From the IMG/VR virus record IMGVR_UViG_3300015369_000022, positions 1 to 33,307 of that record: DNA of 33,307 nucleotides; one strand, written 5' to 3'. The position numbers and the translations under genes are program-made. The notes under the pieces were generated by a model, which was given only the letters and a program-made list of their open reading frames with translations, ran no database searches and was not told the origin of the DNA. The stretch's first letter is position 1, and each line of letters starts with the position of its first letter. The DNA comes from a virus. Shown piece by piece: positions 1 to 33,307 of this stretch.

Positions 1-141
1 CATGCCTTGTGTATTCCGGCGGAAAGTCAGTCCATGCAATCGTCAAGATCGACGCGGCTGATTATGCCGAATATCGGAAGCGTGTTGATTACCTTTATGA
101 GGTATGTAAGCAAAACGGACTTGTCATCGATACGCAAAACA
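1..141. repeat. Terminal overlap copy 1 (identical to 33167-33307)
   Basis: Read directly: catgccttgtgtattccggcgg...catcgatacgcaaaaca occurs at both window ends. Confidence 0.95.
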
Positions 142-14981: not shown

Positions 14982-17345
14982 ATGACTGACGATCTGAAAG
15001 TTGTCGGATTACAATTTAAGGCGGACGGCTCCGCGGACTTTAAGACGTCTCTAAAGGAGATCAATGCGGCATCGAAAGAGAATCAGTCTTCTCTCAAGCT
15101 TCTCAAGTCGCAATACGACCAGAACACATCCGCGACTCAAAAGCTGAAAAATGAGCAGCAATATCTCACGAAGCAAGTCGATCTTTACAAGGACAAGACC
15201 ACGATCCTCCGGAAGGAGCTCGAACAAATGGAGTCCGCTGAGAATCGTGATGAGGAAGCAATCAGCAAGAAAAAGACTCAGCTCAACCAGGCTGAGGCTC
15301 AGCTGAATAAGTATGAGTCCGCGCTTGATGACGTCAATACGAAACTGAAGACTCATCAAGCTGAGCTCGAAGAATGGAGCAAGAAGATCACATCTGTCGG
15401 CGACAAGATGCAAAAGGTCGGAGATGGCATGACGAAGTATGTTACCGGCTCGCTTGCGGCGGCATCGACTGCAATGGTCGGAGTAACTGAAGAGACTCGC
15501 GAGTATAGAACGGCGATGGGAAAGCTCAACACGGCCTTCACAACGAACGGTAAGAGCGCGGCACAGGCTGAAACCACATACAAGCAGCTTCAGTCAGTGC
15601 TTGGCGACTCTGATGTATCGGTAGAAGCAGCGAACCATCTTGCACAGCTGTGCGATGATGAACAGGATCTCCAGGCATGGACGAAAATCTGCACAGGCGT
15701 GTTCGCAACCTTCGGCGACTCATTGCCGATAGAAGGACTGACGGAGGCGGCGAACGAGACCGCAAAGTGCGGAGCTGTTACCGGGCCTTTTGCAGATGCT
15801 CTGAACTGGACGAGCACCAGCGCGGCGGCACTCGGCGATGCGATGGCATCCATACCGGCAGCACAGCAGGCATTCAATGACGCGATTGCCGAGGGCATGT
15901 CTAACGAGGACGCATTCAACGAGGCACTGGCGGCGTGCTCCGATGAGTCTGAGCGTGCGGCGATAATCACCAACACGATGGCGGCTGCTTATGATGGCGC
16001 AGCTGCATCCTACGAGGAAGGCAATGCTGACCTAATTGAAGCGAACAAAGCAACCGAAGACATGGCGGCAAGCATGGCGGACCTCGGAGCAGCTGCAGAG
16101 CCGATTGTAACGACCGGAAAGCAGATGGTGAGCGAGTTTCTTGTCAAGGCAGCAGACGCAGCGACTGAACTATCGAAGAAGTTTCAGAGCCTCTCACCTG
16201 ATACACAGAAACTCATACTGAAAGCGGCTGGCATTGCCGCGGCCATCGGCCCGGTGCTCTCTGTCGGAGGAAGACTGACGAAGGGAATCGGAAAAGTGGT
16301 CGGCAAGGTGCCGAACATTATCAAAGGCGTCCAGAGTGTCATCAAGATCGGCGGCAAGCTGAAGACGGCTCTCATGGCCTTGAATCCGACCACGCTGATC
16401 ATCATCGCGGTCATCGGTTCGCTCATTGCCATCGGCGTCGCATTGTATAAAAACTGGGATACGATCAAGGCATACGCCATCAAGATATGGAATGCCATCA
16501 AGACCACAGTCATTACTGTAGTCAATGGCATAAAGACCGGAGTTACGACGGCATTTAATGCGGTCAAGACCGTGGCTGTCACTGTATGGACCGCAATCAA
16601 GACGGCGATTATAACCGTGGTCAATGCAATCAAGACCGGCGTCATGACCGTATTCAATGGTGTGAAGACATTCGTCACGTCGGCATTCAATGGTATCAAG
16701 ACCGTGGCAACGACGGCATGGAATGCCATCAAGACCGCGATTCTCACTCCGATTACGACGGCAAGAGACAAGCTCAGCGGCATCATATCCGCGATCAAGA
16801 GCAAATTCTCATTCGGAGGCATCGCGGCATCTGTCGCGGCTACGTTCAATGCTGTCAAGTCGAAAATCACAGCTCCGATTGAGACGGCGAAGAACATCGT
16901 CAGCTCCGCGATCTCAAAGATCAAGAGCTTATTCAATGTGCATCTGTCATTCCCGAAGATCAAGCTCCCGCATTTCAAGATTACGGGAGGCAAAGTCCCG
17001 TGGGGAATCGGCGGCAAGGGTACAGCTCCGAAGATCGATATCCAGTGGTATCGCCGGGCTTATGAAACGGCGGCATATTTCGCGAAGCCGACTCTCATGA
17101 CAGCGACGGACGGATCCATCAAGGGATACGGAGACGGACCTGGCGGAGAATTTACCGTCGGAGAGAATAAGCTCCGGTCGACAGTCGCTTCCGGCGTTGC
17201 ATCAGCTTCCGGATTACTGGATCCGCAAGTGATTTACCAGGCGGCTCGACAGGGAGTCATCGACGGAATGAGCGAAGCGACAGTCACGCTCAAGCTGAAT
17301 GACCGTGAGGTCGCAAGAACACTAAGAACGATGGGAGCATTGTAA
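14982..17345 (+). CDS. Tape measure protein
   Basis: 787 aa with a coiled-coil N-terminus, hydrophobic segments and tandem 11-aa repeats. It follows the G/GT pair. Confidence 0.9.
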   Translation: MTDDLKVVGLQFKADGSADFKTSLKEINAASKENQSSLKLLKSQYDQNTSATQKLKNEQQYLTKQVDLYKDKTTILRKELEQMESAENRDEEAISKKKTQLNQAEAQLNKYESALDDVNTKLKTHQAELEEWSKKITSVGDKMQKVGDGMTKYVTGSLAAASTAMVGVTEETREYRTAMGKLNTAFTTNGKSAAQAETTYKQLQSVLGDSDVSVEAANHLAQLCDDEQDLQAWTKICTGVFATFGDSLPIEGLTEAANETAKCGAVTGPFADALNWTSTSAAALGDAMASIPAAQQAFNDAIAEGMSNEDAFNEALAACSDESERAAIITNTMAAAYDGAAASYEEGNADLIEANKATEDMAASMADLGAAAEPIVTTGKQMVSEFLVKAADAATELSKKFQSLSPDTQKLILKAAGIAAAIGPVLSVGGRLTKGIGKVVGKVPNIIKGVQSVIKIGGKLKTALMALNPTTLIIIAVIGSLIAIGVALYKNWDTIKAYAIKIWNAIKTTVITVVNGIKTGVTTAFNAVKTVAVTVWTAIKTAIITVVNAIKTGVMTVFNGVKTFVTSAFNGIKTVATTAWNAIKTAILTPITTARDKLSGIISAIKSKFSFGGIAASVAATFNAVKSKITAPIETAKNIVSSAISKIKSLFNVHLSFPKIKLPHFKITGGKVPWGIGGKGTAPKIDIQWYRRAYETAAYFAKPTLMTATDGSIKGYGDGPGGEFTVGENKLRSTVASGVASASGLLDPQVIYQAARQGVIDGMSEATVTLKLNDREVARTLRTMGAL
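16491..16754 (+). repeat. Eight tandem 33-nt (11-aa) repeats inside the tape measure gene
   Basis: NAIKTTVITVV NGIKTGVTTAF NAVKTVAVTVW TAIKTAIITVV NAIKTGVMTVF NGVKTFVTSAF NGIKTVATTAW NAIKTAILTPI. Confidence 0.85.
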
Positions 17346-17346
17346 G

Positions 17347-18189
17347 ATGAGTATTGATGTAATTTATACCGCATCAAGCGGAAACAAATATAATCTCAAG
17401 GCTTCCGGACTCGGGATGGATCGTGAGACGAATTTCCATTCCTGGACATACTCTCCGAATACTACTCAAAGACAGTACGGAGATAAGCTCAACCGATACG
17501 AGAAGGAGGCTCTGACATACAGCGCAAAATTATACTTCCGCGATTCAATCGAGGATTCGCGGGATATGATCGAAGCGCTCCACGAAGATTTCGAGCTCGA
17601 TATCTCGAATGAGACTCCGGGAAAAATATCGTGGAATGACTGGTATATCGAATGCTATGTCCAGTCATCCACATTGACTCCGGGCGATGATAATGGTTAT
17701 GTCGAGAATGAAGTCGAGATATACGCTCCATATCCTTTTTGGATTAAGGACGCAACGAAGACATTCAATGCATCGTCCGGGACTTCGGAGTATGAATTTC
17801 TCGACTATACTTTCGATTACGAATACGACTATACTCCGGCCGATGTCGGTGTCGCGAAGTGGATAACGCATCATGCGTTCAAGTCGGAATTCTTGATGCG
17901 AATTTATGGTCCATGTTCGAATCCGAAGGTTGTTATCAATGGCCATGTATATCAAGTGTACTGTTCACTCGGAAACGGCGAATATCTTCTCATCAATTCG
18001 AGAGAGGGTACGGCATACAAATACAGCTCGACCGGAGTCGCGACAAACGTATTCGATTTAAGAGATAAGACATCGAGCTTGTTCTACAAAATCCCGGGCG
18101 GGACGCTGACACTGACTTGGCCGGGGACATTCAAATTCGATCTGACACTGTATGAGGAAAGGAGTGAGCCTTTATGGACGACAGCGTAA
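17347..18189 (+). CDS. Distal tail protein (Dit, Sipho_tail-like)
   Basis: 280 aa, directly after the tape measure. Confidence 0.7.
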   Translation: MSIDVIYTASSGNKYNLKASGLGMDRETNFHSWTYSPNTTQRQYGDKLNRYEKEALTYSAKLYFRDSIEDSRDMIEALHEDFELDISNETPGKISWNDWYIECYVQSSTLTPGDDNGYVENEVEIYAPYPFWIKDATKTFNASSGTSEYEFLDYTFDYEYDYTPADVGVAKWITHHAFKSEFLMRIYGPCSNPKVVINGHVYQVYCSLGNGEYLLINSREGTAYKYSSTGVATNVFDLRDKTSSLFYKIPGGTLTLTWPGTFKFDLTLYEERSEPLWTTA

Positions 18190-19175
18190 GAATGATTCTT
18201 GCGACTCCGGACGGTAAGGAGCTCAAATTCCTCTCGGACATGACTATCGACATCGAGATCGGCTCGAGTGATGACACATTTCAATTGACTTTCTCTCGAG
18301 CGGCATGGGATGAGGATATCGAGGAAGGCTGTCGAGTCTTTATTCCGAACACGGAATACGGCGGCCGCGTGAAGCGCAAGGGGACAGCTACGTCATCGGA
18401 TGAGATCTCCGTCGGCGGGCTGACCTGGCGCGGGATGATGGACTATCGAATCATCCAGCCGGCATCCGGCAAAGATTACGCGACAGCATCCGGAGATCTG
18501 AATGAGATCATCAAGGAATTTGTCGAGGATGAATTCCCCGGCTTATTCTATGGAGTCGATACGGAGACCGGCGTCACGCTGACGAATTATCAATTCGACA
18601 GATATTGCACGCTCCACGATGGTCTTCAAAAGATGCTCAAAGAGAGCGGATATCGGCTTGATATCCAGTACATCCAGGGCGAAGCCGGTGCTCCGGGCTA
18701 TGTTCAAGCGCAAGCGCTCGAGATCATCGACTACTCGGACATCATCGAGCTGTCGGAAGACTCTCGAATCAATTACACGGCATCTGAGCGCCATGATTGT
18801 GTCAATCATCTTATATGTCTCGGCTCCGGAGACCTGGCTGAGCGTACTGTCATCCATCTTTACGTCGGATCCGACGGATCCGTCGGTACGACTCAATACT
18901 ATACCGGGCTCGACGAAGTCGTGGCTATATATGATTATGCCGGCGCTAATGATGACGATCTGAAGACAGAAGGGATCAAACAGTTGGAGAGCATGAAGGA
19001 CTCTGATAATTTCGCAATGGACATCTCAGAGCTCGACATCGACTCCATCGCTATCGGAGACATCGTCGGAGGAAGAGACTATCTGACCGGAATGAGCATG
19101 TCAGCGCCTATCGTCGGCAAGATTTATAAAGTCGAAAACGGCGAGGAATCAATTGAATTCAAATTGGAGGAATAA
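18174..19175 (+). CDS. Tail tip/baseplate protein (Sipho_Gp37-like, in the Tal position)
   Basis: 333 aa with an AAGGAG RBS, located between Dit and the fibre gene. Confidence 0.55.
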   Translation: MDDSVRMILATPDGKELKFLSDMTIDIEIGSSDDTFQLTFSRAAWDEDIEEGCRVFIPNTEYGGRVKRKGTATSSDEISVGGLTWRGMMDYRIIQPASGKDYATASGDLNEIIKEFVEDEFPGLFYGVDTETGVTLTNYQFDRYCTLHDGLQKMLKESGYRLDIQYIQGEAGAPGYVQAQALEIIDYSDIIELSEDSRINYTASERHDCVNHLICLGSGDLAERTVIHLYVGSDGSVGTTQYYTGLDEVVAIYDYAGANDDDLKTEGIKQLESMKDSDNFAMDISELDIDSIAIGDIVGGRDYLTGMSMSAPIVGKIYKVENGEESIEFKLEE

Positions 19176-19177
19176 CC

Positions 19178-19939
19178 ATGAATATTATTACCGGATACGG
19201 CGGCGAGCCGCACGTTACAGCTCCACAGGATCGTCAGCTGAACGCTGGCATCCTCTCGGAATATAATTATGTACTCAGTGTCGGGAATCAATTCGCATAT
19301 GAGATCGAGTCGGCGAATTCCGTCATCCTTAAAGACGGGATTCTGTCCCTCCAGGGATGCGCTGCTTCGATTGATGCGAATGATACAGAGACGGTCACTC
19401 TGACGAATGGTACATCCGGATATAAACGGACGGATTTGATCGTGGCACGTTATGAGCTCAACACTGATACAGCCGTCGAGTCGGTCACGCTGGCCGTCAT
19501 CGAAGGCACTCCGGCGGAATCGGATCCGGAGACTCCATCATACAATGAAGGTACGATCGCGGACGGTGACAGCCCGGTTGACTTCCCGCTGTATAAGGTC
19601 AATATCGACGGAGTAAGCATCGATTCACTGACTCAGATGTTTACGGTCCTTCCGTCAATTAGTGATTTAAACAGCAACACAGTGAAAGATATCAGAGTCA
19701 TTGAAGTGTCCGTATCAATAACAATCAATGCATCTACATCCGGCACAAAAACCGCGACTTATACCATCCCGGATGGCTATAAGGTTGTTATGTTCGGAGG
19801 ATGCACATCGTCAAATACTACAATCGTCCCGGCTGGTGTTACAGGCTTATCCGGGACTGCAACATTTAGAGGACGCAACACATCGAGCTCATCTCAGACA
19901 ACAACGCTGACAGCTATCTTGTTATGCTTTAAAAGTTAG
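19178..19939 (+). CDS. Tail fibre / receptor-binding protein; the current C-terminus is cassette x1 (19678-19939)
   Basis: Last tail gene before the lysis module. Its C-terminal ~87 aa are homologous to three silent cassettes. Recombination core A lies in frame at 19667-19677. Confidence 0.7.
   Translation: MNIITGYGGEPHVTAPQDRQLNAGILSEYNYVLSVGNQFAYEIESANSVILKDGILSLQGCAASIDANDTETVTLTNGTSGYKRTDLIVARYELNTDTAVESVTLAVIEGTPAESDPETPSYNEGTIADGDSPVDFPLYKVNIDGVSIDSLTQMFTVLPSISDLNSNTVKDIRVIEVSVSITINASTSGTKTATYTIPDGYKVVMFGGCTSSNTTIVPAGVTGLSGTATFRGRNTSSSSQTTTLTAILLCFKS
19667..19677 (+). repeat. Recombination core A (TTAAACAGCAA), inside the tail-fibre ORF
   Basis: Read directly. Codons TTA AAC AGC AAc encode LNSN. 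Confidence 0.7.
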
Positions 19940-19968
19940 GAGTAAAGCCTATAAAGTAAGGAATAAGT

Positions 19969-20226
19969 TTAATCCTTCATATACAGAATACTTAAAATAA
20001 CATATTCATTAGAATAAGCTGTTGAATTGTGATTCTTTACTCTAACAATTGCATCTGTACCATCCAGATTGAATTTTGCAATTGTACTTGCACCGGAAAA
20101 CCAATTCATCACTCCTACAATACCAATCGGCGTATAACCATCTTTTGAGACATCGGTTGTTATGTCCAATGTACTGGATGCAGGAAGCGTTGCTTTTGCG
20201 GATGTAATATTCTCAACAAGAAACAT
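19969..20226 (-). CDS. Silent alternative tail-fibre C-terminal cassette x2 (frame open up to core B at 20237-20247)
   Basis: Convergent with the fibre 3' end. The upstream in-frame codons read QLNSNIKD, against DLNSNTVKD in the fibre. It shares the DGY motif and a hydrophobic C-terminal pattern. No RBS or promoter is visible. Confidence 0.6.
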   Translation of the reverse strand: MFLVENITSAKATLPASSTLDITTDVSKDGYTPIGIVGVMNWFSGASTIAKFNLDGTDAIVRVKNHNSTAYSNEYVILSILYMKD

Positions 20227-20236
20227 ATCCTTGATA

Positions 20237-20247
20237 TTGCTGTTTAA
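20237..20247 (-). repeat. Recombination core B (TTAAACAGCAA on the - strand)
   Basis: Exact inverted copy of core A, in the same codon register. Confidence 0.7.
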
Positions 20248-20277
20248 TTGATTAGTTATTTCTAAGGAGAATTGAAA

Positions 20278-20580
20278 ATGAATGAAGGTACAAAGATAAG
20301 GACCGCGCTTCGCGTTGCGGTCTCTTTGAATACCGCGATTTATGCTGTAATGGCCGCGGTCAATGGTCTCGGAAGCACAAAGGCGTCAATCGTCTGGAGC
20401 GTGCTGACGATTCTCAGTGATTTCGTCGTGTCGTTTATTACGACATACTATAACAACGATTATACGAAGGAAGCGTGTCTCGGGACCGGCATCACGCGCC
20501 AGCTGAAGGCTGAGGGCGGTGACGGCTACGGAGCTGAGACATTCTTTTCAGATGAGGAAGGAGCGTCAGAGGATGAATAG
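20278..20580 (+). CDS. Holin (SPP1-family-like)
   Basis: AAGGAG lies 8 nt upstream of ATG 20278. Motifs are GTKIRTAL, two TM-like segments and YYNNDYTKEA, with an acidic tail. It overlaps the endolysin start. Confidence 0.75.
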   Translation: MNEGTKIRTALRVAVSLNTAIYAVMAAVNGLGSTKASIVWSVLTILSDFVVSFITTYYNNDYTKEACLGTGITRQLKAEGGDGYGAETFFSDEEGASEDE

Positions 20581-21409
20581 TGCTATATACAGACAGTATG
20601 ATTCACGCTGGGGCTCGCTTCCGTATCCTACGAAGACCTATAACATGAGCGGATGCGGATGCGGATGTTGCGCGGTGCTCCATTGCATTATCGAGCGCTC
20701 AAAATATGCGAAGTATACTCCGAAGACCATCCAGCCATACATGAAGGGCTTCGCTGTCGGCGGAAACGGGACTCTTTGGAGCGGGATCCGCGACGGGCTG
20801 AAGCATTATGGCATGGATAATGTCAAATGGTTTGGTGCATCGGCCACAATGACGGAGATCTTCGCTGAGCTGAAGAAGGGATCCAGAATCGGAGTCATCC
20901 TCTTCGGATCCACGAAAGGCCCGGACGGGACTGTATGGACCACAGGCGGCCATTATATCGCTTTTACGGATTACAAGATCAAGAATAGCAAGCACTATTT
21001 TTATCTTAAGGATTCCGGCGGACGGAAGCATGATGGATGGTATTGCTATGAGAAGTCCATGAAGGGCGATGTCCGCCAGGTCTGGACATGTACTGTCCCG
21101 AAGGAGGCATCGACAGCCACAGCGACAGCTTCCACAAAGAAGACCACAGCGAAGACATCATCGAAAAAGACCTATTCCGGGACATTCCCGTCCTTCTCAA
21201 AGTGTCTCGAGAAGGGCGATAAGGGGACTCAAGTGAAGAATCTCCAGAAATTCCTCAATTGGTACGGAGGATATAAGCTCACTGTCGATGGTATTTACGG
21301 ATCCGCGACAGTGACAGCCGTGAAAAAATTTCAAAAGGCTGAGGGACTGACCGCTGACGGCATATTCGGCCCGGCATCCCTCAAGGCCGCGAAGAAGGTG
21401 AAGAAGTGA
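20573..21409 (+). CDS. Endolysin: N-terminal papain-fold cysteine peptidase plus C-terminal PG_binding_1 domain
   Basis: Motifs are YDSRWGSLPY..SGCGCGCCAV (catalytic Cys region) and GGHYIAF. The C-terminus GDKGTQVKNLQKFLN...VDGIYGSATVTAVKKFQ is a peptidoglycan-binding repeat. Confidence 0.8.
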   Translation: MNSAIYRQYDSRWGSLPYPTKTYNMSGCGCGCCAVLHCIIERSKYAKYTPKTIQPYMKGFAVGGNGTLWSGIRDGLKHYGMDNVKWFGASATMTEIFAELKKGSRIGVILFGSTKGPDGTVWTTGGHYIAFTDYKIKNSKHYFYLKDSGGRKHDGWYCYEKSMKGDVRQVWTCTVPKEASTATATASTKKTTAKTSSKKTYSGTFPSFSKCLEKGDKGTQVKNLQKFLNWYGGYKLTVDGIYGSATVTAVKKFQKAEGLTADGIFGPASLKAAKKVKK

Positions 21410-21705
21410 TGCCGCCAGAGGTGTTAATTGCTATCATCGGGAGCTCAGCTCTCTTCTCATTCATTCAATTCATTATCACGCGAATTGATAACAAGCGGAA
21501 TAATCCGCTCAATGACGCGGTAAAAGCGCTGCTCAGAGACCGGCTGATTCACATATGCTCCGGATATCTGAGGAATGGCGAGATCCGCGTCAACGATCTC
21601 GACACGGTTATAAGCTTATATACATCGTATAAAGAACTCGGCGGGAATGGTTTCGTCACGGAGCTGGTCGACCAGGTGACGGAGCTTCCTAAAATTCATA
21701 ATTAA
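21406..21705 (+). CDS. N-terminally membrane-anchored protein (possible lysis accessory protein)
   Basis: A TM segment (VLIAIIGSSALFSFIQFII) lies at the N-terminus. The start overlaps the endolysin stop. Confidence 0.5.
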   Translation: MMPPEVLIAIIGSSALFSFIQFIITRIDNKRNNPLNDAVKALLRDRLIHICSGYLRNGEIRVNDLDTVISLYTSYKELGGNGFVTELVDQVTELPKIHN

Positions 21706-21722
21706 ATACTTCCTACATATAA

Positions 21723-21755
21723 GGCGGGCCTTTAATGGTCCGCCGCTTTTTTTTA
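21723..21755 (+). terminator. Rho-independent terminator ending the late/lysis operon
   Basis: The hairpin ggcgggcc-tttaat-ggtccgcc is followed by a T9 tract. Confidence 0.75.
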
Positions 21756-21801
21756 TTTGATAAGATTCTCGAATCGAATCAAAATGAAGGAGGAAATTAT
21801 T

Positions 21802-22662
21802 ATGTACGAGTATGAAGAATTATGGGATACAGCCTTGAGACGCTTCCGGGCTTGCAAGACATTGGAGAATTGTGCTGAGACCACCATCAAGCAATATGAA
21901 GACATCATTCGGAAACTGAGGCAATGGACAGACAAGCCGCTGGACCAGATCAATGGAGACGATCTCCGGGAATTCCTGGCGGAATACCATTCGAGCCGGA
22001 ATGTCTCGCTTGCATATCTCGACACTCTGAGACGCTATCTGTCGGCATGGTTTGGATGGGTAGCCGATGACGATCTGATTATGAAGAATCCGGCAAGGAA
22101 AATCCCGAAGATTAAAGTCCCGAAGACCGTCAAGAAGGCATTCACATCCGAAGAACGCGAGATGCTCAAGGATTCCGCGTCATCTATTCGAGATCTGGCG
22201 CTCATGGAGGTCCTTTATTCGACCGCGGCCCGTATCAACGAGATCCTGGCGCTGGATCAGAGCGATGTCGACTTCCCGAATCGTGAGATCGTCATATACG
22301 GACAGAAAGGCAAGCGGGAGAGAATCGTATATCTGTCGGATCCGGCGGCATATCGCCTCCAGCGCTATCTCGAGAGCCGGTCCGATAAGAATCCGGCGCT
22401 ATTCGTCTCGAATCGGAAGCCGTATCAGCGCTTAACGTCCCAGGGAGCTCAGCGGATGCTCAGAGAGCTGGGACGCGAGACCGGGATCCATGTTCACGCT
22501 CACAAATTTCGGCGGAGCTTCCTCACTGATGCATCATCGAAAGGAATGAGCCTCCAGGAATTACAGATCTACGCTGGCCATGTGAAGCCGGAAACCACAA
22601 TGACATACATCGACGTCAAACAGGAAGACATCAAAGCCACATTCCGGAGAATAATCACATAA
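21802..22662 (+). CDS. Small tyrosine site-specific recombinase (XerC/D-like size); candidate shufflon invertase
   Basis: GAAGGAGG RBS precedes ATG 21802. Catalytic signature is ARINEIL (R), HKFRRSF (HxxR) and GHVKPETTMTYI (H..Y). The stop codon TAA (22660-22662) is part of core C. Confidence 0.8.
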   Translation: MYEYEELWDTALRRFRACKTLENCAETTIKQYEDIIRKLRQWTDKPLDQINGDDLREFLAEYHSSRNVSLAYLDTLRRYLSAWFGWVADDDLIMKNPARKIPKIKVPKTVKKAFTSEEREMLKDSASSIRDLALMEVLYSTAARINEILALDQSDVDFPNREIVIYGQKGKRERIVYLSDPAAYRLQRYLESRSDKNPALFVSNRKPYQRLTSQGAQRMLRELGRETGIHVHAHKFRRSFLTDASSKGMSLQELQIYAGHVKPETTMTYIDVKQEDIKATFRRIIT

Positions 22663-22669
22663 ACAGCAA
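22660..22669 (+). repeat. Recombination core C (TAAACAGCAA)
   Basis: Read directly. It is in the register aTA AAC AGC AAt and leads in frame into cassette x3. Confidence 0.65.
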
Positions 22670-22670
22670 T

Positions 22671-22922
22671 TTGACGCTTGTAAAAAAAACGTATACTGGA
22701 ACGACGTCCGACACAAATTCCATCGTAAGCACGGAGCTAAGCATCGAAGATTATATTCCTCTTAAATGTAATTGTGCCATCAAAGGCTATGAGGTATGTG
22801 TTGTGCCTTATTGTTATAGCACATGGAAGTTTCAGCTCGTCGCTGCTAACGGTCATGCTCCTGTCGGTTCTGGGAAAAGTTACACCTTAACTGTGTGGCT
22901 TTTGGAATGGCCTACATCTTAA
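22671..22922 (+). CDS. Silent alternative tail-fibre C-terminal cassette x3 (in frame from core C)
   Basis: It has no ATG or RBS; the track start is TTG. It is ~85 aa with a KGY motif and an LTVWLLEW-type C-terminal strand, homologous in layout to x1, x2 and x4. Confidence 0.5.
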   Translation: MTLVKKTYTGTTSDTNSIVSTELSIEDYIPLKCNCAIKGYEVCVVPYCYSTWKFQLVAANGHAPVGSGKSYTLTVWLLEWPTS

Positions 22923-22932
22923 TGCCTCAAGA

Positions 22933-23191
22933 CTAATCATCCGATGCTCTGAGCAAGAGCCGGAGCTTGCAAGTTATTCCGGAGGCTGAGCCGGATGTGT
23001 GGTTTACAATATACGCTCTGTTGAGGCTGTCATTGAGTTTAACTGTCAGATAATGATAATTTGTGCCGGACAGCAATGGAGTTATTGACAGACAATCATA
23101 ACCATCCGGGACAGTAAAAGCATAAGGAGTCGAATTGCCTCCGGCATAAGAGCCGCCTGTTACAAGCGTGATGTCCTCAATCGTGAGAGTT
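22933..23191 (-). CDS. Silent alternative tail-fibre C-terminal cassette x4 (in frame from core D)
   Basis: FTVPDGYDCL in x4 aligns with YTIPDGYKVV in the expressed fibre. The track ORF extends to 23328 only by read-through of noncoding repeats. Confidence 0.6.
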
Positions 23192-23201
23192 TTGCTGTTT
23201 A
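23192..23201 (-). repeat. Recombination core D (TAAACAGCAA on the - strand)
   Basis: Read directly. The register is GTA AAC AGC AAA, encoding VNSK. Confidence 0.65.
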
Positions 23202-23230
23202 CTTGACAAACACGCTCAAATTCCGCATCA

Positions 23231-23290
23231 AGCTTGATTATTTTATAATTTTTTGAAAATAGCTTGATTATTTTATAATTTTTTGAAAAT
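23231..23290. repeat. Perfect 2 x 30-bp tandem repeat (agcttgattattttataattttttgaaaat)
   Basis: Read directly: 23231-23260 is identical to 23261-23290. Confidence 0.9.
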
Positions 23291-23299
23291 GCGGAAAAA

Positions 23300-23328
23300 A
23301 TTCGCGCAAAATCCGGAAAATTTGTCAA
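23300..23328 (-). promoter_or_regulatory. Promoter-like element facing leftward toward core D
   Basis: On the - strand, TTGACA is followed by 17 nt and then GCGAAT, with TG at the extended -10 position. The -10 is weak. Confidence 0.3.
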
Positions 23329-23481
23329 GTTACATCGGCTGGATATTGAGAGGGGTATGGCATTTCCCTCCTTGAGCTTATTCTATTCGAGGACATCATC
23401 GTCCTCATCGTCGAGCCCGGCGAAGTCGGTCTCGGCATCCACAGGACCGGAGTGACGAGCAGCTCCGGTCTTGTATTTCGA

Positions 23482-23502
23482 GGGTGAATTTAGGGGTGAA
23501 TT
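23482..23502 (+). repeat. Putative integrase arm-type sites (GGGTGAATT, GGGGTGAATT), left arm of attP
   Basis: Direct repeats at 23482-23490 and 23493-23502. Confidence 0.5.
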
Positions 23503-23613
23503 GACTCATTTTTATTGATATTTAATGATAATGAATTTATAATCTTTTCCATATGTTTCACGAATTATCAACATCCGTGATGCGCGGTGATAAGCGAAGA
23601 TAAGGGACATAAT

Positions 23614-23639
23614 GAATTCAAGTCCCTCTTCGCGCACCA
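23614..23639 (+). other. Putative attP core: 3' end of a tRNA gene (T-loop, T-stem 3' strand, acceptor 3' strand, CCA)
   Basis: gaaTTCAAGTCCCTCTTCGCGCACCA resembles T-loop/TTCAAGT + CCCTC + TTCGCGC + A + CCA. No matching 5' half is present, so this is a fragment and not a gene. Confidence 0.55.
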
Positions 23640-23640
23640 T

Positions 23641-23685
23641 AAGAGCGTCGGAATTTCAACGTGTCCGGCGCTCTTTCCTTTTGTT
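23641..23685 (+). terminator. Terminator-like hairpin directly after the tRNA 3' fragment
   Basis: aagagcgtcgga...tccggcgctctt (one mismatch) is followed by tccttttgtt. Confidence 0.45.
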
Positions 23686-23686
23686 A

Positions 23687-23707
23687 GGGGTGAAAACGGG
23701 GTGAATT
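23687..23707 (+). repeat. Putative integrase arm-type sites (GGGGTGAAAA, GGGGTGAATT), right arm of attP
   Basis: Direct repeats at 23687-23696 and 23698-23707, in the same orientation as the left-arm copies. Confidence 0.5.
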
Positions 23708-23751
23708 ATACCCGCTGAGGCTGAAAATTTGCCGGGTATCCCGCGAGTAAA

Positions 23752-23780
23752 TCAAAAAGCCGACCGCTTTGTGGTCGGCT
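23752..23780 (-). terminator. Rho-independent terminator of the integrase gene
   Basis: The - strand reads AGCCGACC-acaaagc-GGTCGGCT followed by TTTTTGATTT. Confidence 0.7.
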
Positions 23781-23806
23781 CATTAAAATCGCTTAAATCG
23801 AGAATT

Positions 23807-24952
23807 TTAGCTTTGCGCTGATAAGAGCTCATCGATGCCATGCGCTATTCCTCTGGAGCTGGCGGATGCATCCTGGAAGAGATGAGTGTATATGTCGAGC
23901 GTGGTCGACTTCTCAGCATGTCCCAGCTGGCTCGATATGTCGAGTATGTCATATCCCAGATATCTCGCAAGGCTGGCGTGAGTATGACGGAGCTTGTGCG
24001 GTGTTACGGCCGGGAGATTGTGTCGCTCTTCCAGCCGCATCAAATACCAGCTGACTTGATTCGAGTGGATCGGGGATCCGTCATAGTCCAGGATGACGAA
24101 ATTTGATCGCTCAAGGCCCGGCATCCGGATCCAGAGCTCGAGATGCCGCTTCCGGAGCTGAGCGAGATGATCCTTGAGCCGGTCCGGGATGGCTATCGTC
24201 CGGGCTGACTCTTTTGTTTTGGTATCAGAGACGATGTCCTTGATCTCATCGCCGGTATTCACGCGATGGCGCGACTTATTCACAGTGATGATGCCGTCTC
24301 CGATGTTATCGACGGTGAGACCTAAGATCTCCGACATACGGAGACCACAGAATAAGGCCAGCTCAATCGCACATACGCGGTCCGGCTCCGCGTCAAATTC
24401 CGTATCAAGAGCGCTACAAAATGGAATAAATGTCTCAATGTCCAGAGTGATCGGCTCCTTGCGCTCTTTTTTCGGAAGCTCGACTCGCTCGCAAGGATTC
24501 CGGTCGAGCTCTCCCAGGCGGACAGCCCGGTTATATGCTGAGCTGAGCAGCGAGACCGTATTCCGGACCGTCTTCGGAGAATAATTCTTGTCTTCCGTCA
24601 GTTTCCGGATCCATCTGTCGATATCCATCGGCTTCACGTTCTTCGCTTTCGGATCTCCCAGAGTCTCAGCGATGCGCTCCCGGACTACACGGTATCCTCT
24701 GAGCGTGGTCTCTCTGGCTCCGGCCGACTTCCTGGCGTCGATATAGTCATTGATGATGTCAGAGAGCGTCACGGATCCGCGGAGAGCCTTATTATTATCG
24801 ACTTCGGTCTCGAATAATCTGTATTGACGATTGAGATCCCGCTTCGATGTATATTCGACCGTCTTCTTGTATCGGATCGGCTTCCCGGCGAGATCTGATC
24901 CTCTGTATACCACGAGCCGGGCCTTATGATCGTTAATTATTTCAATTCCCAT
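23807..24952 (-). CDS. int: Phage integrase (tyrosine recombinase with N-terminal arm-binding-type domain)
   Basis: 381 aa. Signature is GLRMSEIL (R), HKLRHTHAS (HxxR) and GHAEKSTTLDIYTH (H..Y). The gene is adjacent to attP and the repressor. Confidence 0.9.
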   Translation of the reverse strand: MGIEIINDHKARLVVYRGSDLAGKPIRYKKTVEYTSKRDLNRQYRLFETEVDNNKALRGSVTLSDIINDYIDARKSAGARETTLRGYRVVRERIAETLGDPKAKNVKPMDIDRWIRKLTEDKNYSPKTVRNTVSLLSSAYNRAVRLGELDRNPCERVELPKKERKEPITLDIETFIPFCSALDTEFDAEPDRVCAIELALFCGLRMSEILGLTVDNIGDGIITVNKSRHRVNTGDEIKDIVSDTKTKESARTIAIPDRLKDHLAQLRKRHLELWIRMPGLERSNFVILDYDGSPIHSNQVSWYLMRLEERHNLPAVTPHKLRHTHASLARYLGYDILDISSQLGHAEKSTTLDIYTHLFQDASASSRGIAHGIDELLSAQS

Positions 24953-32435: not shown

Positions 32436-33307
32436 GGGCTACAACATCAAGGATGTGCTCGCATATCTTGAGCCTTCGGAGCTCGATTATACGGAGTGGA
32501 CTAAGGTCGGAATGGGGCTCAAGGAGTCCGGATATTCCGTCGAGATATGGGATGACTGGTCCGCCAGGGATCCGGGCCGATATCATCCGGGCGAATGTGA
32601 GAAAAAGTGGAATTCATTCCGCGGAGGCTATGACAGGGATGTATCCGTCGGATCTATCGTCCAGATGGCTAAGGATCGCGGCTGGATGCCGCCGGTCGAG
32701 GAAGGCCACGAGCTGTCATGGGATGATTACATCGGCAAGGACAAGAAGGTCATCGACAAGGCATGGCTCGAGGGCGAGGAAGTCCATGAGCCGAATGATA
32801 AGGAATGGAAGCAAGCCGCGGAGCTGATCAAGTACATTGATACGCTCTTCGCATCCGATGAGTATGTCGGATATGTATGTGAGGCATGGCAAAACAAGGA
32901 CGGGAAATATCTCCCATCCAAAGGCGTGTATACGATGACGGCCGGCGAGCTGATTGACAAGCTGTCGAAGTGTAAGAATAACGACATCGGCTCCGTACTC
33001 GGAGATTATAAGCCGGAGGTCGGAGCATGGATCCGCTTTAATCCGCTTGATGGTAAGGGAGTCAAGAATGACAATGTCACGGATTTCAGATATGCACTGG
33101 TAGAGTCTGACACGATGCCGATCGATAAGCAAAATGCCATGATCAGAGAGCTGGAGCTTCCGGTCGCATGCCTTGTGTATTCCGGCGGAAAGTCAGTCCA
33201 TGCAATCGTCAAGATCGACGCGGCTGATTATGCCGAATATCGGAAGCGTGTTGATTACCTTTATGAGGTATGTAAGCAAAACGGACTTGTCATCGATACG
33301 CAAAACA
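32425..33307 (+). CDS. Primase-helicase, N-terminal part (PriCT-2-like domain plus primase-polymerase-like core); continues to 1346 across the junction, about 695 aa in total
   Basis: ATG 32425 overlaps the helicase stop. Motifs are YTEWTKVGMGLKESGYSVEIWDDWS (PriCT-2-like) and VESD...VYSGGKSVHA (catalytic-core-like). There is no stop codon before the window end. Confidence 0.8.
   Translation, partial: MDGKGYNIKDVLAYLEPSELDYTEWTKVGMGLKESGYSVEIWDDWSARDPGRYHPGECEKKWNSFRGGYDRDVSVGSIVQMAKDRGWMPPVEEGHELSWDDYIGKDKKVIDKAWLEGEEVHEPNDKEWKQAAELIKYIDTLFASDEYVGYVCEAWQNKDGKYLPSKGVYTMTAGELIDKLSKCKNNDIGSVLGDYKPEVGAWIRFNPLDGKGVKNDNVTDFRYALVESDTMPIDKQNAMIRELELPVACLVYSGGKSVHAIVKIDAADYAEYRKRVDYLYEVCKQNGLVIDTQN
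33167..33307. repeat. Terminal overlap copy 2 (identical to 1-141)
   Basis: Read directly. The copy is in frame with the ORF that starts at 32425. Confidence 0.95.

What the first reader, a model, noticed from the sequence alone, without database searches (positions are those of the whole stretch)
19667..20247. Proximal inverton: 11-bp perfect inverted repeat brackets the expressed fibre tip and a convergent silent tip
TTAAACAGCAA at 19667-19677 and its exact reverse complement at 20237-20247 flank x1 (+, ends 19939) and x2 (-, 19969-20236), which are arranged tail to tail 29 bp apart. Reading from each core gives DLNSNTVKDIRVIEV for x1 and QLNSNIKDMFLVENI for x2, so homology continues past the core at the protein level. 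Inverting the 559-bp segment would replace the last 87 aa of the fibre without touching the downstream holin RBS at 20264.
Basis: seen in the sequence. Interest (0 to 1): 0.8.

Follow-up and report, generated by a model that had tools for sequence, protein, structure and literature searches.

The report
Phage receptor-binding tip shufflon
A temperate gut-type phage carries four interchangeable tips for its host-recognition protein and its own recombinase to swap them by flipping DNA; this kind of switch is known, but here it has a new layout and a new enzyme lineage.

Summary
TTAAACAGCAA (19667-19677) and its reverse complement (20237-20247) bracket two convergent, in-frame tip cassettes, x1 and x2. 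The repeat alone is not significant: the window holds 15 comparable 11-mer pairs against about 6 in shuffles. The context is what counts. The 10-bp core TAAACAGCAA occurs exactly four times, in alternating orientation (A+, B-, C+, D-), and each copy is followed in frame by an open cassette of about 85 codons. An armless XerA/XerC-like tyrosine recombinase (21802-22662) lies between the two cassette pairs.

The "fibre" is a siphophage baseplate receptor-binding protein (RBP), and the core sits in its neck. No orientation variant of this exact phage exists in public assemblies. Relatives with a homologous recombinase (38-42% identity) and near-identical cores show the same four-site layout. In those relatives the proximal segment is found in both orientations between about 99% identical genomes, and whole modules are swapped between the proximal and distal slots.

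The closest known system is the Rin shufflon of Bifidobacterium prophages. It shares the RBP constant domain and junction position, but its recombinase clade, core sequence and cassette layout differ. I rate this a new variant of a known kind, of moderate interest. The proximal inverton is half of a four-site shufflon. In this phage alone, the lysis genes lie inside the outer invertible span.

The parts
19178..19666 (+). Constant part of the receptor-binding protein (RBP) gene: N-terminal 'shoulder' domain and the start of the neck, residues 1-163
   Evidence: The family has 1857 homologues, and many matches stop at about residue 165. PHROG 9994 and others match residues 1-203 only. The AlphaFold model (pLDDT 82) has a beta domain at 31-158. 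The best solved-structure matches are the RBPs of lactococcal phages 1358 and p2.
19667..19677 (+). Crossover site A (core TTAAACAGCAA, read as L164-N-S-N167); similarity to site B extends left to 19657
   Evidence: It lies in the linker helix 161-168 of the model.
19678..19939 (+). x1, the currently expressed head (tip) cassette: 86 residues plus stop
   Evidence: The model shows a C-terminal beta sandwich at 172-252.
19969..20236 (-). x2, a silent convergent head cassette: 88 residues plus stop, in frame with the core of site B
   Evidence: There are 110 homologues, all at the extreme C-terminus of their proteins. One is P0152, which has an RBP N-domain of this family. GC content is 34.7%.
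20237..20247 (-). Crossover site B (exact inverted copy of the core); similarity extends to 20257
20278..21705 (+). Putative holin (20278-20580), endolysin (20573-21409) and a small ORF (21409-21705). These late genes lie between sites B and C, inside the outer invertible span.
   Evidence: Gene calls in L001. The endolysin has PG_binding_1 and endolysin PHROGs. The holin assignment is an inference from position and hydrophobic segments only.
21723..21753 (+). Intrinsic terminator-like hairpin that ends the late operon, followed by a promoter-like site at 21757-21785
   Evidence: sequence.
21802..22662 (+). Armless XerA/XerC-like tyrosine recombinase (286 aa), the proposed invertase; its stop codon TAA lies inside site C
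   Evidence: PF00589 E 1e-33 plus an N-terminal SAM-like domain. NCBIfam XerA_Arch scores 202 bits. It aligns with PDB 4a8e at E 1e-31, with R144, K169, H234-x-x-R237, H260 and Y269 aligned. An AAGGAGG RBS precedes the ATG. Homologues sit between B and C in relatives.
22659..22669 (+). Crossover site C (ATAAACAGCAA, one mismatch at the first base)
22670..22922 (+). x3, a silent head cassette (83 residues), in frame with the core of site C
22933..23191 (-). x4, a silent convergent head cassette (85 residues), weakly homologous to x1
   Evidence: BLASTP x1 vs x4 gives E 0.008. Inverted DNA similarity I2/I4.
23192..23202 (-). Crossover site D (GTAAACAGCAA, one mismatch at the first base)

Best explanation
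The segment 19678-20236 is the proximal invertible module of a phage-encoded, tyrosine-recombinase-driven shufflon. The shufflon changes the head (receptor-recognition) domain of the baseplate receptor-binding protein.

Shown by sequence: four 10-bp cores (TAAACAGCAA) alternate in orientation. One lies in the RBP neck (A). One follows the convergent pair x1/x2 (B). One overlaps the stop codon of the recombinase gene (C). One follows the convergent pair x3/x4 (D). Every core is in frame with a cassette of about 85 residues.

Inferred mechanism: the 286-aa recombinase, transcribed from its own promoter after the late terminator, synapses two inversely oriented sites and exchanges strands inside the shared core. 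A x B flips 559 bp and replaces head x1 with x2 while leaving the late transcript into the holin intact. C x D flips the distal pair. A x D followed by B x C exchanges the two modules, which makes x4 and x3 expressible. That gives four RBP variants and, presumably, four receptor specificities. A lysogen population would therefore release a mixture of virions with different host ranges.

Shown in relatives but not in this phage: flips and module swaps at exactly these junctions.
For: Four sites and four in-frame cassettes. The recombinase has an intact catalytic set and no arm-binding domain, and it is distinct from the phage's 381-aa integrase.

The RBP identity and the neck position of the core come from the model and fold searches. 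x2 belongs to a head-domain family that always sits at protein C-termini, including on an RBP of this family. In the RBP family many pairs have N-termini 95-100% identical and unrelated C-termini.

Loci with a homologous recombinase (38-42% identity) have the same A+ B- rec C+ D- layout. Their cores differ from the window's by as little as one synonymous base: TTAAATAGCAA, AATTAAGTAGCAA, TTAAATGGCAA. In L044 vs L046 the flanks are 99.8% and 98.2% identical and collinear, while the 826-bp segment between A and B is 99.9% identical but inverted. In L038 vs L044 the flanks and recombinase are collinear, while the proximal and distal modules are exchanged and inverted (96.4% and 90.0%), as A x D plus B x C predicts.

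Across 32 loci, modules (4,5), (14,6), (0,1) and (22,23) occur in both orientations at the proximal slot. Module (9,10) is flipped at the distal slot, and five modules occur in either slot. No terminator-like site is predicted inside the segment on either strand.

Precedent: the Rin shufflon, with read-level evidence of inversion (PMC6109161).
Against: There is no direct evidence for this phage. Its three assemblies (from two datasets) are collinear at 99.98%. The three predicted chimeric proteins are absent from a 15-billion-protein collection. The junction is absent from the DNA collections scanned.

The 11-bp repeat is not significant alone. The window's sites lack the clear 6-bp dyad (ATTGCT...AGCAAT) that I noted by eye in some relatives' sites listed. 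C and D each differ from A/B at the first core base.

The window is the only one of 42 loci in which lysis genes lie between B and the recombinase. Events that use C or D would therefore turn the lysis genes antisense to the late operon and may be selected against. Most RBP genes of this family in reference genomes have no junction repeat at all, so the inverton is lineage-specific and can be lost (L040).
Confidence: 0.85

Rival explanations
1. Fossil shufflon. The architecture was produced by past site-specific inversion, but in this phage it no longer switches. This could be because the lysis cassette has been placed between site B and the recombinase, or because the sites have drifted. x2-x4 would then be decaying relics.
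For: All assemblies of this phage show one orientation, and no chimeras are found. The layout is atypical compared with 41 relatives. Locked derivatives exist in the family (L040 lost the recombinase), and many RBPs lack a repeat.
Against: A and B are still identical over 11 bp, and all four sites over 10 bp. All four cassettes are still open and in frame. The recombinase retains all catalytic residues, a good RBS and its own promoter-like site. Three assemblies from two datasets are too few to detect a minority state.
Confidence: 0.1
2. The inversion is real but is catalysed by another enzyme: the phage integrase (23807-24952), a host Xer recombinase, or a host invertase acting in trans. The 21802-22662 gene would then have a different role.
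For: Some related lineages have invertible RBP segments with no recombinase within 10 kb (L003/L008 and L009/L019). Mavrich et al. describe a second bifidophage inversion locus without a flanking recombinase.
Against: In 41 of 42 loci the recombinase family sits directly after the proximal module, and the second module follows its stop codon. Core sequence co-varies with recombinase lineage. The lineages without this recombinase use another core (AAATAAGGATTTG) or are incomplete contigs.
Confidence: 0.03
3. Chance repeat plus independent small genes. x2 is a free-standing 85-aa minus-strand gene (ATG at 20226), and the 11-bp repeat is coincidental.
For: 11-bp inverted pairs at this spacing are common in the window. 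Gene callers annotate x2 as an 85-aa ORF, and many homologues are short ORFs.
Against: Four cores alternate in orientation and share one frame. The ATG at 20226 has AGGA only one base upstream, which is too close for a ribosome-binding site (sequence). x2 homologues always end at protein C-termini, and some are fused to this RBP N-domain. Relatives are observed in both orientations.
Confidence: 0.02

Closest known systems
Rin shufflon of Bifidobacterium prophages (Bb423phi1, Bl157phi1, Bl30698phi1; Mavrich et al. 2018, PMC6109161), also reported in Eggerthella lenta prophages (PMC8778435)
   Same: Both have a phage-encoded, armless XerD-like tyrosine recombinase next to variable RBP C-terminus cassettes. 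Both have a short asymmetric 11-bp crossover site in front of every cassette. The constant N-terminus is about 165 residues (168 in Rin) and the variable heads about 85-100 residues, with only 6-30% identity between heads. The constant domain is homologous: the window RBP matches Bifidobacterium phage PMBT6 at 29% over residues 3-164. PMBT6 carries the rix variant TTCCGTAACCC at codon 167. The fold relates to the lactococcal phage 1358 RBP, as reported for Rc.
   Different: The core sequence is unrelated (TTAAACAGCAA vs TTCCCTAACCC). The recombinase is only marginally similar to the PMBT6 Rin-type enzyme (BLASTP E 0.04) and groups with XerA/XerC models. In Rin the cassettes form one contiguous block between Rc and rin. 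Here they form two convergent pairs on either side of the recombinase gene, and in this phage also on either side of the lysis genes, so the invertase gene lies inside the largest invertible span. By relatives' genomes the hosts are Clostridia, not Actinobacteria.
Gin/G segment of phage Mu, Cin/C segment of P1, and the Min multiple-inversion system of p15B (own knowledge; summarised in PMC6109161)
   Same: Both swap the C-terminal part of a host-recognition tail protein by site-specific inversion, with the crossover site inside the gene. Min has several sites and cassettes, as here.
   Different: Those systems use serine invertases with an enhancer and Fis, and they act on long tail fibres of myoviruses. 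Here the only recombinases are tyrosine-family enzymes, and the target is a siphophage baseplate RBP.
R64 plasmid shufflon (Rci tyrosine recombinase acting on pilV; own knowledge; cited in PMC9881135)
   Same: A tyrosine recombinase, multiple short sites that are conserved on one side only, and selection of alternative C-termini of an adhesin by inversion.
   Different: The target is a conjugative pilus adhesin on a plasmid. The segments are contiguous. No relationship of the recombinase to Rci was shown here; the best NCBIfam models are XerA, XerC and XerD.
Tail-fibre shufflon of BV01-like Phocaeicola vulgatus phages (2026 preprint, PMC13596623)
   Same: A phage-encoded multi-cassette shufflon that overlaps the distal end of a tail-fibre gene, is flanked by a recombinase, has 10-bp directional motifs, and has read-level evidence for all configurations.
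   Different: The motif is different (TGGGAGAACT). It has three cassettes in a 1.7-kb block, a Bacteroidota host and a carbohydrate-binding tail fibre. I did not test homology.

Membership tests
Rin-type phage RBP shufflon (Mavrich et al. 2018) | A phage-encoded tyrosine recombinase without an arm-binding domain, adjacent to the RBP cassettes and distinct from the phage integrase | tested here: met
   The 286-aa protein has PF00589 plus a SAM-like N-domain only and aligns end to end with XerA. A separate 381-aa integrase with Int_N is present. The two are unrelated beyond the catalytic motif.
Rin-type phage RBP shufflon (Mavrich et al. 2018) | A constant RBP N-terminus (Rc, about 168 aa) homologous to the bifidophage Rc / phage 1358 RBP, with the crossover site at its end | tested here: met
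   tblastn hit to PMBT6 at 29% over residues 3-164. The PMBT6 rix-like core is at codon 167 and the window core at codon 164. The top PDB fold hit is the 1358 RBP.
Rin-type phage RBP shufflon (Mavrich et al. 2018) | Several variable C-terminus cassettes, each preceded by the crossover site and in frame with it | tested here: met
   Four cassettes and four sites in one frame.
Rin-type phage RBP shufflon (Mavrich et al. 2018) | The rix core TTCCCTAACCC | tested here: not met
   The core here is TTAAACAGCAA. PMBT6 has TTCCGTAACCC.
Rin-type phage RBP shufflon (Mavrich et al. 2018) | A recombinase orthologous to Rin | tested here: not met
   BLASTP against the PMBT6 recombinase next to its rix sites gives E 0.04 at 21-28% over short stretches. 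The Rin proteins of Bb423phi1 themselves were not available for comparison.
Rin-type phage RBP shufflon (Mavrich et al. 2018) | Inversions observed between genomes or within reads at the crossover sites | tested here: inconclusive
   None is seen for this phage. They are clearly seen in relatives that carry the homologous recombinase.
Serine-invertase tail-fibre switches (Gin, Cin, Pin, Min) | A serine recombinase (resolvase/invertase domain) next to the invertible segment | tested here: not met
   Pfam and PHROG scans of the ORFs between 17347 and 24952 found only PF00589 tyrosine recombinases.
Tyrosine recombinase superfamily (catalytically active member) | The conserved R...K...H-x-x-R...H/W...Y catalytic residues | tested here: met
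   R144, K169, H234, R237, H260 and Y269 align with those of XerA 4a8e and 5hxy. R144, K169, H234 and R237 are invariant among seven homologues.
FimB/FimE-type tyrosine DNA invertases | A match to the curated invertase model above its cut-off | tested here: not met
   NF007371 scores 33 bits against a cut-off of 222. XerA, XerC and XerD models score higher, though also below their cut-offs.
R64-type shufflon (Rci) | An Rci-family recombinase and a pilV target | tested here: not met
   The target is a phage RBP. No Rci-type model appears among the NCBIfam hits. The one-sided conservation of the sites resembles sfx sites (and own knowledge), but this is a resemblance only.

The most novel reading that the evidence does not exclude
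In this phage alone, out of 42 loci examined, the holin, endolysin and invertase genes lie between sites B and C. Two consequences could follow. (a) Any single event that uses the distal sites (A x D or B x C) would turn the lysis genes and the invertase antisense to the late operon. Access to tips x3 and x4 would then pass through a lysis-incompetent intermediate, coupling host-range switching to phase-variable lysis. (b) Any deletion between directly oriented sites (A x C or B x D, the kind that stripped the recombinase from L040) would remove essential lysis genes. Interleaving essential genes would in that case protect the shufflon from decay.
Probability: 0.12. Interest if true: 0.7.

Novelty: new variant of a known kind. 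Interest (0 to 1): 0.45.

Why it matters
Host range of gut phages is a main obstacle both to linking phages with hosts and to phage therapy. Tyrosine-recombinase shufflons on phage RBPs have so far been described for phages of Actinobacteria (Rin) and, very recently, Bacteroidota.

This window and its relatives show a separate and apparently widespread lineage in phages of Clostridia (Lachnospiraceae, Coprococcus, Ruminococcus, Blautia and others). It has a stereotyped four-site, two-module layout built around a XerA-like invertase and a short core that is easy to search for. Annotation pipelines call the silent cassettes as hypothetical 85-150-aa ORFs, and assemblers break or fold back at these loci. 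Recognising the architecture would therefore improve phage genome assembly, annotation and host-range inference. It also offers a compact natural scaffold of about 165 constant and about 85 variable residues for engineering RBP specificity.

Tried and rejected
These checks found nothing or were set aside:

- Exact-sequence look-up of the three chimeric RBPs predicted for this phage, and of eight chimeras predicted for relatives L003, L007 and L008: none is in the collection. The test fails on a single substitution, so it is uninformative for the relatives.
- Scans of metagenome and viral contig collections for the constant flank plus core: no hit, not even the known source contigs. Those collections simply do not hold this phage.
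- Megablast of 17300-24000 against deposited phages: no match.
- Sequence-profile search of the RBP family against PDB: no hit. Only the fold search worked.
- L039 was first read as a proximal/distal exchange. I rejected it because it is a fold-back chimera of two phages joined through a shared module.
- L081, the single locus with the recombinase antisense to the RBP, cannot be distinguished from an assembly path that mixes swapped and unswapped states. I do not count it as evidence.
- L056 (P0048) shows that a cassette distal in L008 is expressed elsewhere, but the strains are only 93-97% identical, so it is not a clean rearrangement.
- Contigs ending just after the junction are suggestive of heterogeneity, but two of the eight may be storage cuts rather than contig ends.
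- Reference genomes: only 1 of 14 complete RBP genes has a junction repeat, so the inverton is not a property of the whole RBP family.
- I looked for a dyad-symmetric recombinase site in the window and found none comparable to ATTGCT-N9-AGCAAT of some relatives (by eye, from the sites).
Full report
1. The observation

The sequence is as described. TTAAACAGCAA lies at 19667-19677 and its exact reverse complement at 20237-20247. Between them are the 3' end of a 253-aa ORF (19178-19939) and a convergent minus-strand ORF (19969-20236), separated by 29 bp. Read from each core in the same frame, the two give ...SDLNSN-TVKDIRVIEV... and ...NQLNSN-IKDMFLVENI.... Joining the constant part to x2 gives an uninterrupted 255-aa protein. 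The invertible stretch is 559 bp. It excludes the AAGGAG (20264-20269) and the ATG (20278) of the next gene.

One correction matters: an 11-bp inverted repeat at this spacing is not unusual. The window contains 15 such pairs, against 5.9 +/- 3.2 in composition-matched shuffles. The finding therefore stands on its context, not on the repeat.

2. The context: four sites, four cassettes, one recombinase

The core with at most one mismatch occurs four times in the window (0.18 expected; 0 of 100 shuffles reach four). The sites are A 19667 (+), B 20237 (-), C 22659 (+) and D 23192 (-), and the 10-mer TAAACAGCAA is identical in all four. Each copy is followed, in the frame L-N-S-N/K, by an open cassette of 83-88 residues that ends in a stop: x1, x2, x3 (22670-22922, +) and x4 (22933-23191, -). 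The probabilities of staying open by chance are 8e-4, 6e-3 and 1.5e-2 for the three silent cassettes.

The sites are conserved to the left of the core (17 of 22 positions for A/B, 18 of 22 for B/C) but not on the cassette side. The heads are only weakly alike (x1/x4 E 0.008; a shared (D/K)GY motif).

Between B and C lie a putative holin, an endolysin (PG_binding_1), a small ORF and a strong terminator-like hairpin (21723-21753). After a promoter-like site and an AAGGAGG RBS comes a 286-aa tyrosine recombinase (21802-22662), whose stop codon sits inside site C. The recombinase has the core-binding and catalytic domains only. It aligns end to end with archaeal XerA (4a8e, E 1e-31) with R144, K169, H234-x-x-R237, H260 and Y269 in place. 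It is unrelated, beyond the catalytic motif, to the phage's 381-aa integrase at 23807-24952.

The window itself is a complete circular temperate genome of 33,166 bp, shown by a 141-bp terminal overlap.

3. What the protein is

The gene follows the tape measure, Dit and a Tal-like minor tail protein. An AlphaFold model built on 40 family members (pLDDT 82) shows an N-terminal beta domain (31-158), a short helix (161-168) that carries the core, and a C-terminal beta sandwich (172-252). The best solved-structure matches are the receptor-binding proteins of lactococcal phages 1358 and p2. The best viral matches are annotated as receptor-binding proteins. So the "fibre" is a siphophage baseplate RBP, the cassettes are head domains, and the crossover site is in the neck.

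x2 is a real member of a head-domain family. It has 110 homologous clusters, and in every one the match runs to the last residues of the protein. Seventy-four of them are short ORFs of the silent-cassette kind. P0152 combines an N-domain of this RBP family with an x2-like head.

4. Is there inversion? Evidence from this phage

None. The exact RBP occurs on three contigs from two datasets. Both loci retrieved are collinear with the window at 99.98%. The three predicted chimeras are absent from a 15-billion-protein collection, and the DNA collections do not hold this junction. With so few assemblies, this says little either way.

5. Evidence from relatives

The RBP family is large (1857 hits). 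Many hits match only up to about residue 165, and many pairs have N-termini 95-100% identical with unrelated C-termini. In viral contigs, about 27 of 33 complete genes have an inverted repeat with one arm at codon 160-171 and the other 570-850 bp downstream.

Loci that carry a homologue of the window's recombinase (38-42% identity) share its layout exactly: RBP-A(+), two convergent cassettes, B(-), recombinase, C(+), two convergent cassettes, D(-). Their cores are TTAAATAGCAA (one synonymous change from the window), AATTAAGTAGCAA, TTAAATGGCAA or TTAAATGATAA. Of 80 loci found with the recombinase as query, 41 have the RBP N-domain upstream on the same strand, with the recombinase 811-1134 bp after it.

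Rearrangements at the cores are seen directly:
- L044 and L046 are 99.8% and 98.2% identical and collinear in the flanks, while the 826 bp between A and B are 99.9% identical and inverted. The exchange point lies inside the 19-bp shared core.
- L038 and L044 are collinear in both flanks and in the recombinase, but the proximal and distal modules are exchanged and each is inverted (96.4% and 90.0%). This is the product expected from A x D followed by B x C.
- L040 equals L046 minus the B-to-D stretch. It is a deletion between directly oriented sites that removed the recombinase.
- Across 32 loci of this group, cassette pairs travel as modules. Pairs (4,5), (14,6), (0,1) and (22,23) are found in both orientations in the proximal slot. 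Pair (9,10) is flipped in the distal slot. Pairs (4,5), (14,6), (2,3), (18,19) and (13,14) are found in either slot.

A looser comparator, L009 vs L019, also shows a clean flip. It crosses over at another core (AAATAAGGATTTG), and no homologous recombinase is in the locus.

Polymorphisms in the left part of the relatives' cores stay with the flank across swaps (sites listed). This places the exchange in the right part, TAGCAA, which corresponds to CAGCAA in the window. This step is an inference from non-isogenic strains.

6. Mechanism proposed

The recombinase, expressed from its own promoter outside the late operon, pairs inversely oriented sites and exchanges strands within the shared 10-bp core. 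A x B toggles x1 and x2. C x D toggles the order of x3 and x4. A x D plus B x C brings the distal module to the expressed position.

The sequence demonstrates the reading frame, the integrity of the late transcript (no terminator-like site on either strand of the segment) and the untouched holin RBS. Activity in this phage, its timing (probably in the lysogen, as for Mu Gin; own knowledge) and the effect on host range are inferred.

States with the middle segment inverted appear rare. Only 1 of 42 loci (L081) shows one, and that contig could be an assembly path that mixes coexisting states. L039 proved to be a fold-back chimera of this kind.

7. What is unusual in this window

In all 41 co-oriented relatives the recombinase directly follows the proximal module. 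Here the holin, endolysin and a small ORF are inserted between B and the recombinase, giving 2145 bp instead of about 960. Any event that uses C or D would therefore flip the lysis genes and the terminator as well. Any deletion between direct sites would remove them.

A related group (L003, L007, L008) also has its two modules separated by 4-6 kb of tail and lysis genes, but with no recombinase within 10 kb. Whether the window's arrangement restricts it to the A x B switch, creates lysis-incompetent intermediates, or stabilises the shufflon against deletion cannot be decided from sequence.

8. Comparison with known systems

The closest is the Rin shufflon of Bifidobacterium prophages (PMC6109161). 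It has an armless tyrosine invertase, 11-bp asymmetric rix sites, a 168-residue constant Rc related to the phage 1358 RBP, variable heads of 95-100 residues, and read-level proof of inversion.

The constant domain here is homologous. It matches Bifidobacterium phage PMBT6 at 29% over residues 3-164. PMBT6 carries TTCCGTAACCC at codon 167 and twice more downstream, next to a 290-aa recombinase. But the recombinases are barely similar (E 0.04), the cores are unrelated, and Rin's cassettes form one block rather than two convergent pairs around the invertase.

Rin-like loci are also reported in Eggerthella lenta prophages (PMC8778435). A tail-fibre shufflon with a different 10-bp motif is reported in BV01-like Phocaeicola phages (PMC13596623). 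The classical Gin, Cin and Min systems use serine invertases. A systematic survey lists tail-fibre genes among inversion targets without describing this family (PMC9881135).

My searches found no description of this lineage in phages of Clostridia, where its relatives reside. The literature search was limited to open-access text.

9. Verdict

The repeat alone is not significant. The target is an RBP head domain. The proximal inverton is half of a four-site shufflon driven by the adjacent XerA-like recombinase.

It is a new variant of a known kind. Confidence that it is, or very recently was, a working inversion switch is 0.85. Interest is moderate at 0.45.

Noticed in passing
window 1-141 and 33167-33307: The first 141 bases are repeated exactly at the end of the window. 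The window is therefore a circular assembly of a complete 33,166-bp temperate phage genome, with an integrase at 23807-24952 and an S24 repressor beside it.
   Followed up: partly
window 23231-23290: A perfect 30-bp tandem duplication (AGCTTGATTATTTTATAATTTTTTGAAAAT x2) lies just outside site D, within the upstream extension of the x4 ORF. Its meaning is unknown.
   Followed up: no
window 19969-20236: x2 is 34.7% G+C, against 49.4% for the genome and 42-47% for the other cassettes. This suggests recent import of the cassette from a lower-GC phage.
   Followed up: partly
L020, L025, L027, L042, L043, L045 (viral contigs); L059, L060, L061, L065 (MAG contigs); L034:10650: Many contigs of relatives end within about 10-55 codons after the RBP junction. 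L034 has an N and a duplicated core there. Assemblers appear to break at the inverton, as expected if several tips follow one N-terminus within a sample.
   Followed up: partly
L039:11275-16413 vs L081: L039 is a fold-back chimera. After the cassette module it continues as the reverse complement (99.7%) of the upstream tail region of a different phage (L081). The two are joined through a shared cassette pair, so distinct phage lineages share near-identical modules.
   Followed up: yes
L040 vs L046:11310-12888: L040 lacks the stretch from site B to site D, including the recombinase. It looks like a deletion between directly oriented sites that leaves a locked two-cassette locus.
   Followed up: partly
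L009 and L019, 10480-11332: This lineage flips its RBP tip at a different core (AAATAAGGATTTG). No homologue of the window's recombinase is in the locus, so another enzyme or one acting in trans may be involved.
   Followed up: partly
L003:10490-16180, L007, L008:10490-17672: The group with the core CTAAATGGCAAA has two cassette modules separated by 4-6 kb of tail-accessory and lysis genes, but no recombinase within 10 kb. In L008 the distal module abuts bacterial genes at the prophage end.
   Followed up: partly
L081 (IMGVR_UViG_3300045988_137249): This is the only one of 42 loci with the recombinase antisense to the RBP gene, one module away. That is the geometry of a single A x D or B x C event, but it is not distinguishable from an assembly path mixing coexisting states.
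   Followed up: partly
L055 (Bifidobacterium phage PMBT6) 6489, 6791, 7082: PMBT6 carries three directly oriented copies of a Rin-type core (TTCCGTAACCC). One is at RBP codon 167 and one precedes each of two small downstream ORFs, next to a 290-aa 'integrase'. This looks like an unannotated Rin locus.
   Followed up: partly
L054 (Clostridium phage phiCs5676-1) 5998-7133: This cultured C. scindens phage has an RBP homologue (36% over residues 1-176) followed by a convergent 104-aa ORF, but I found no junction repeat of 10 bp or more. It could serve as an experimental model for the family, or it may be a locked variant.
   Followed up: partly
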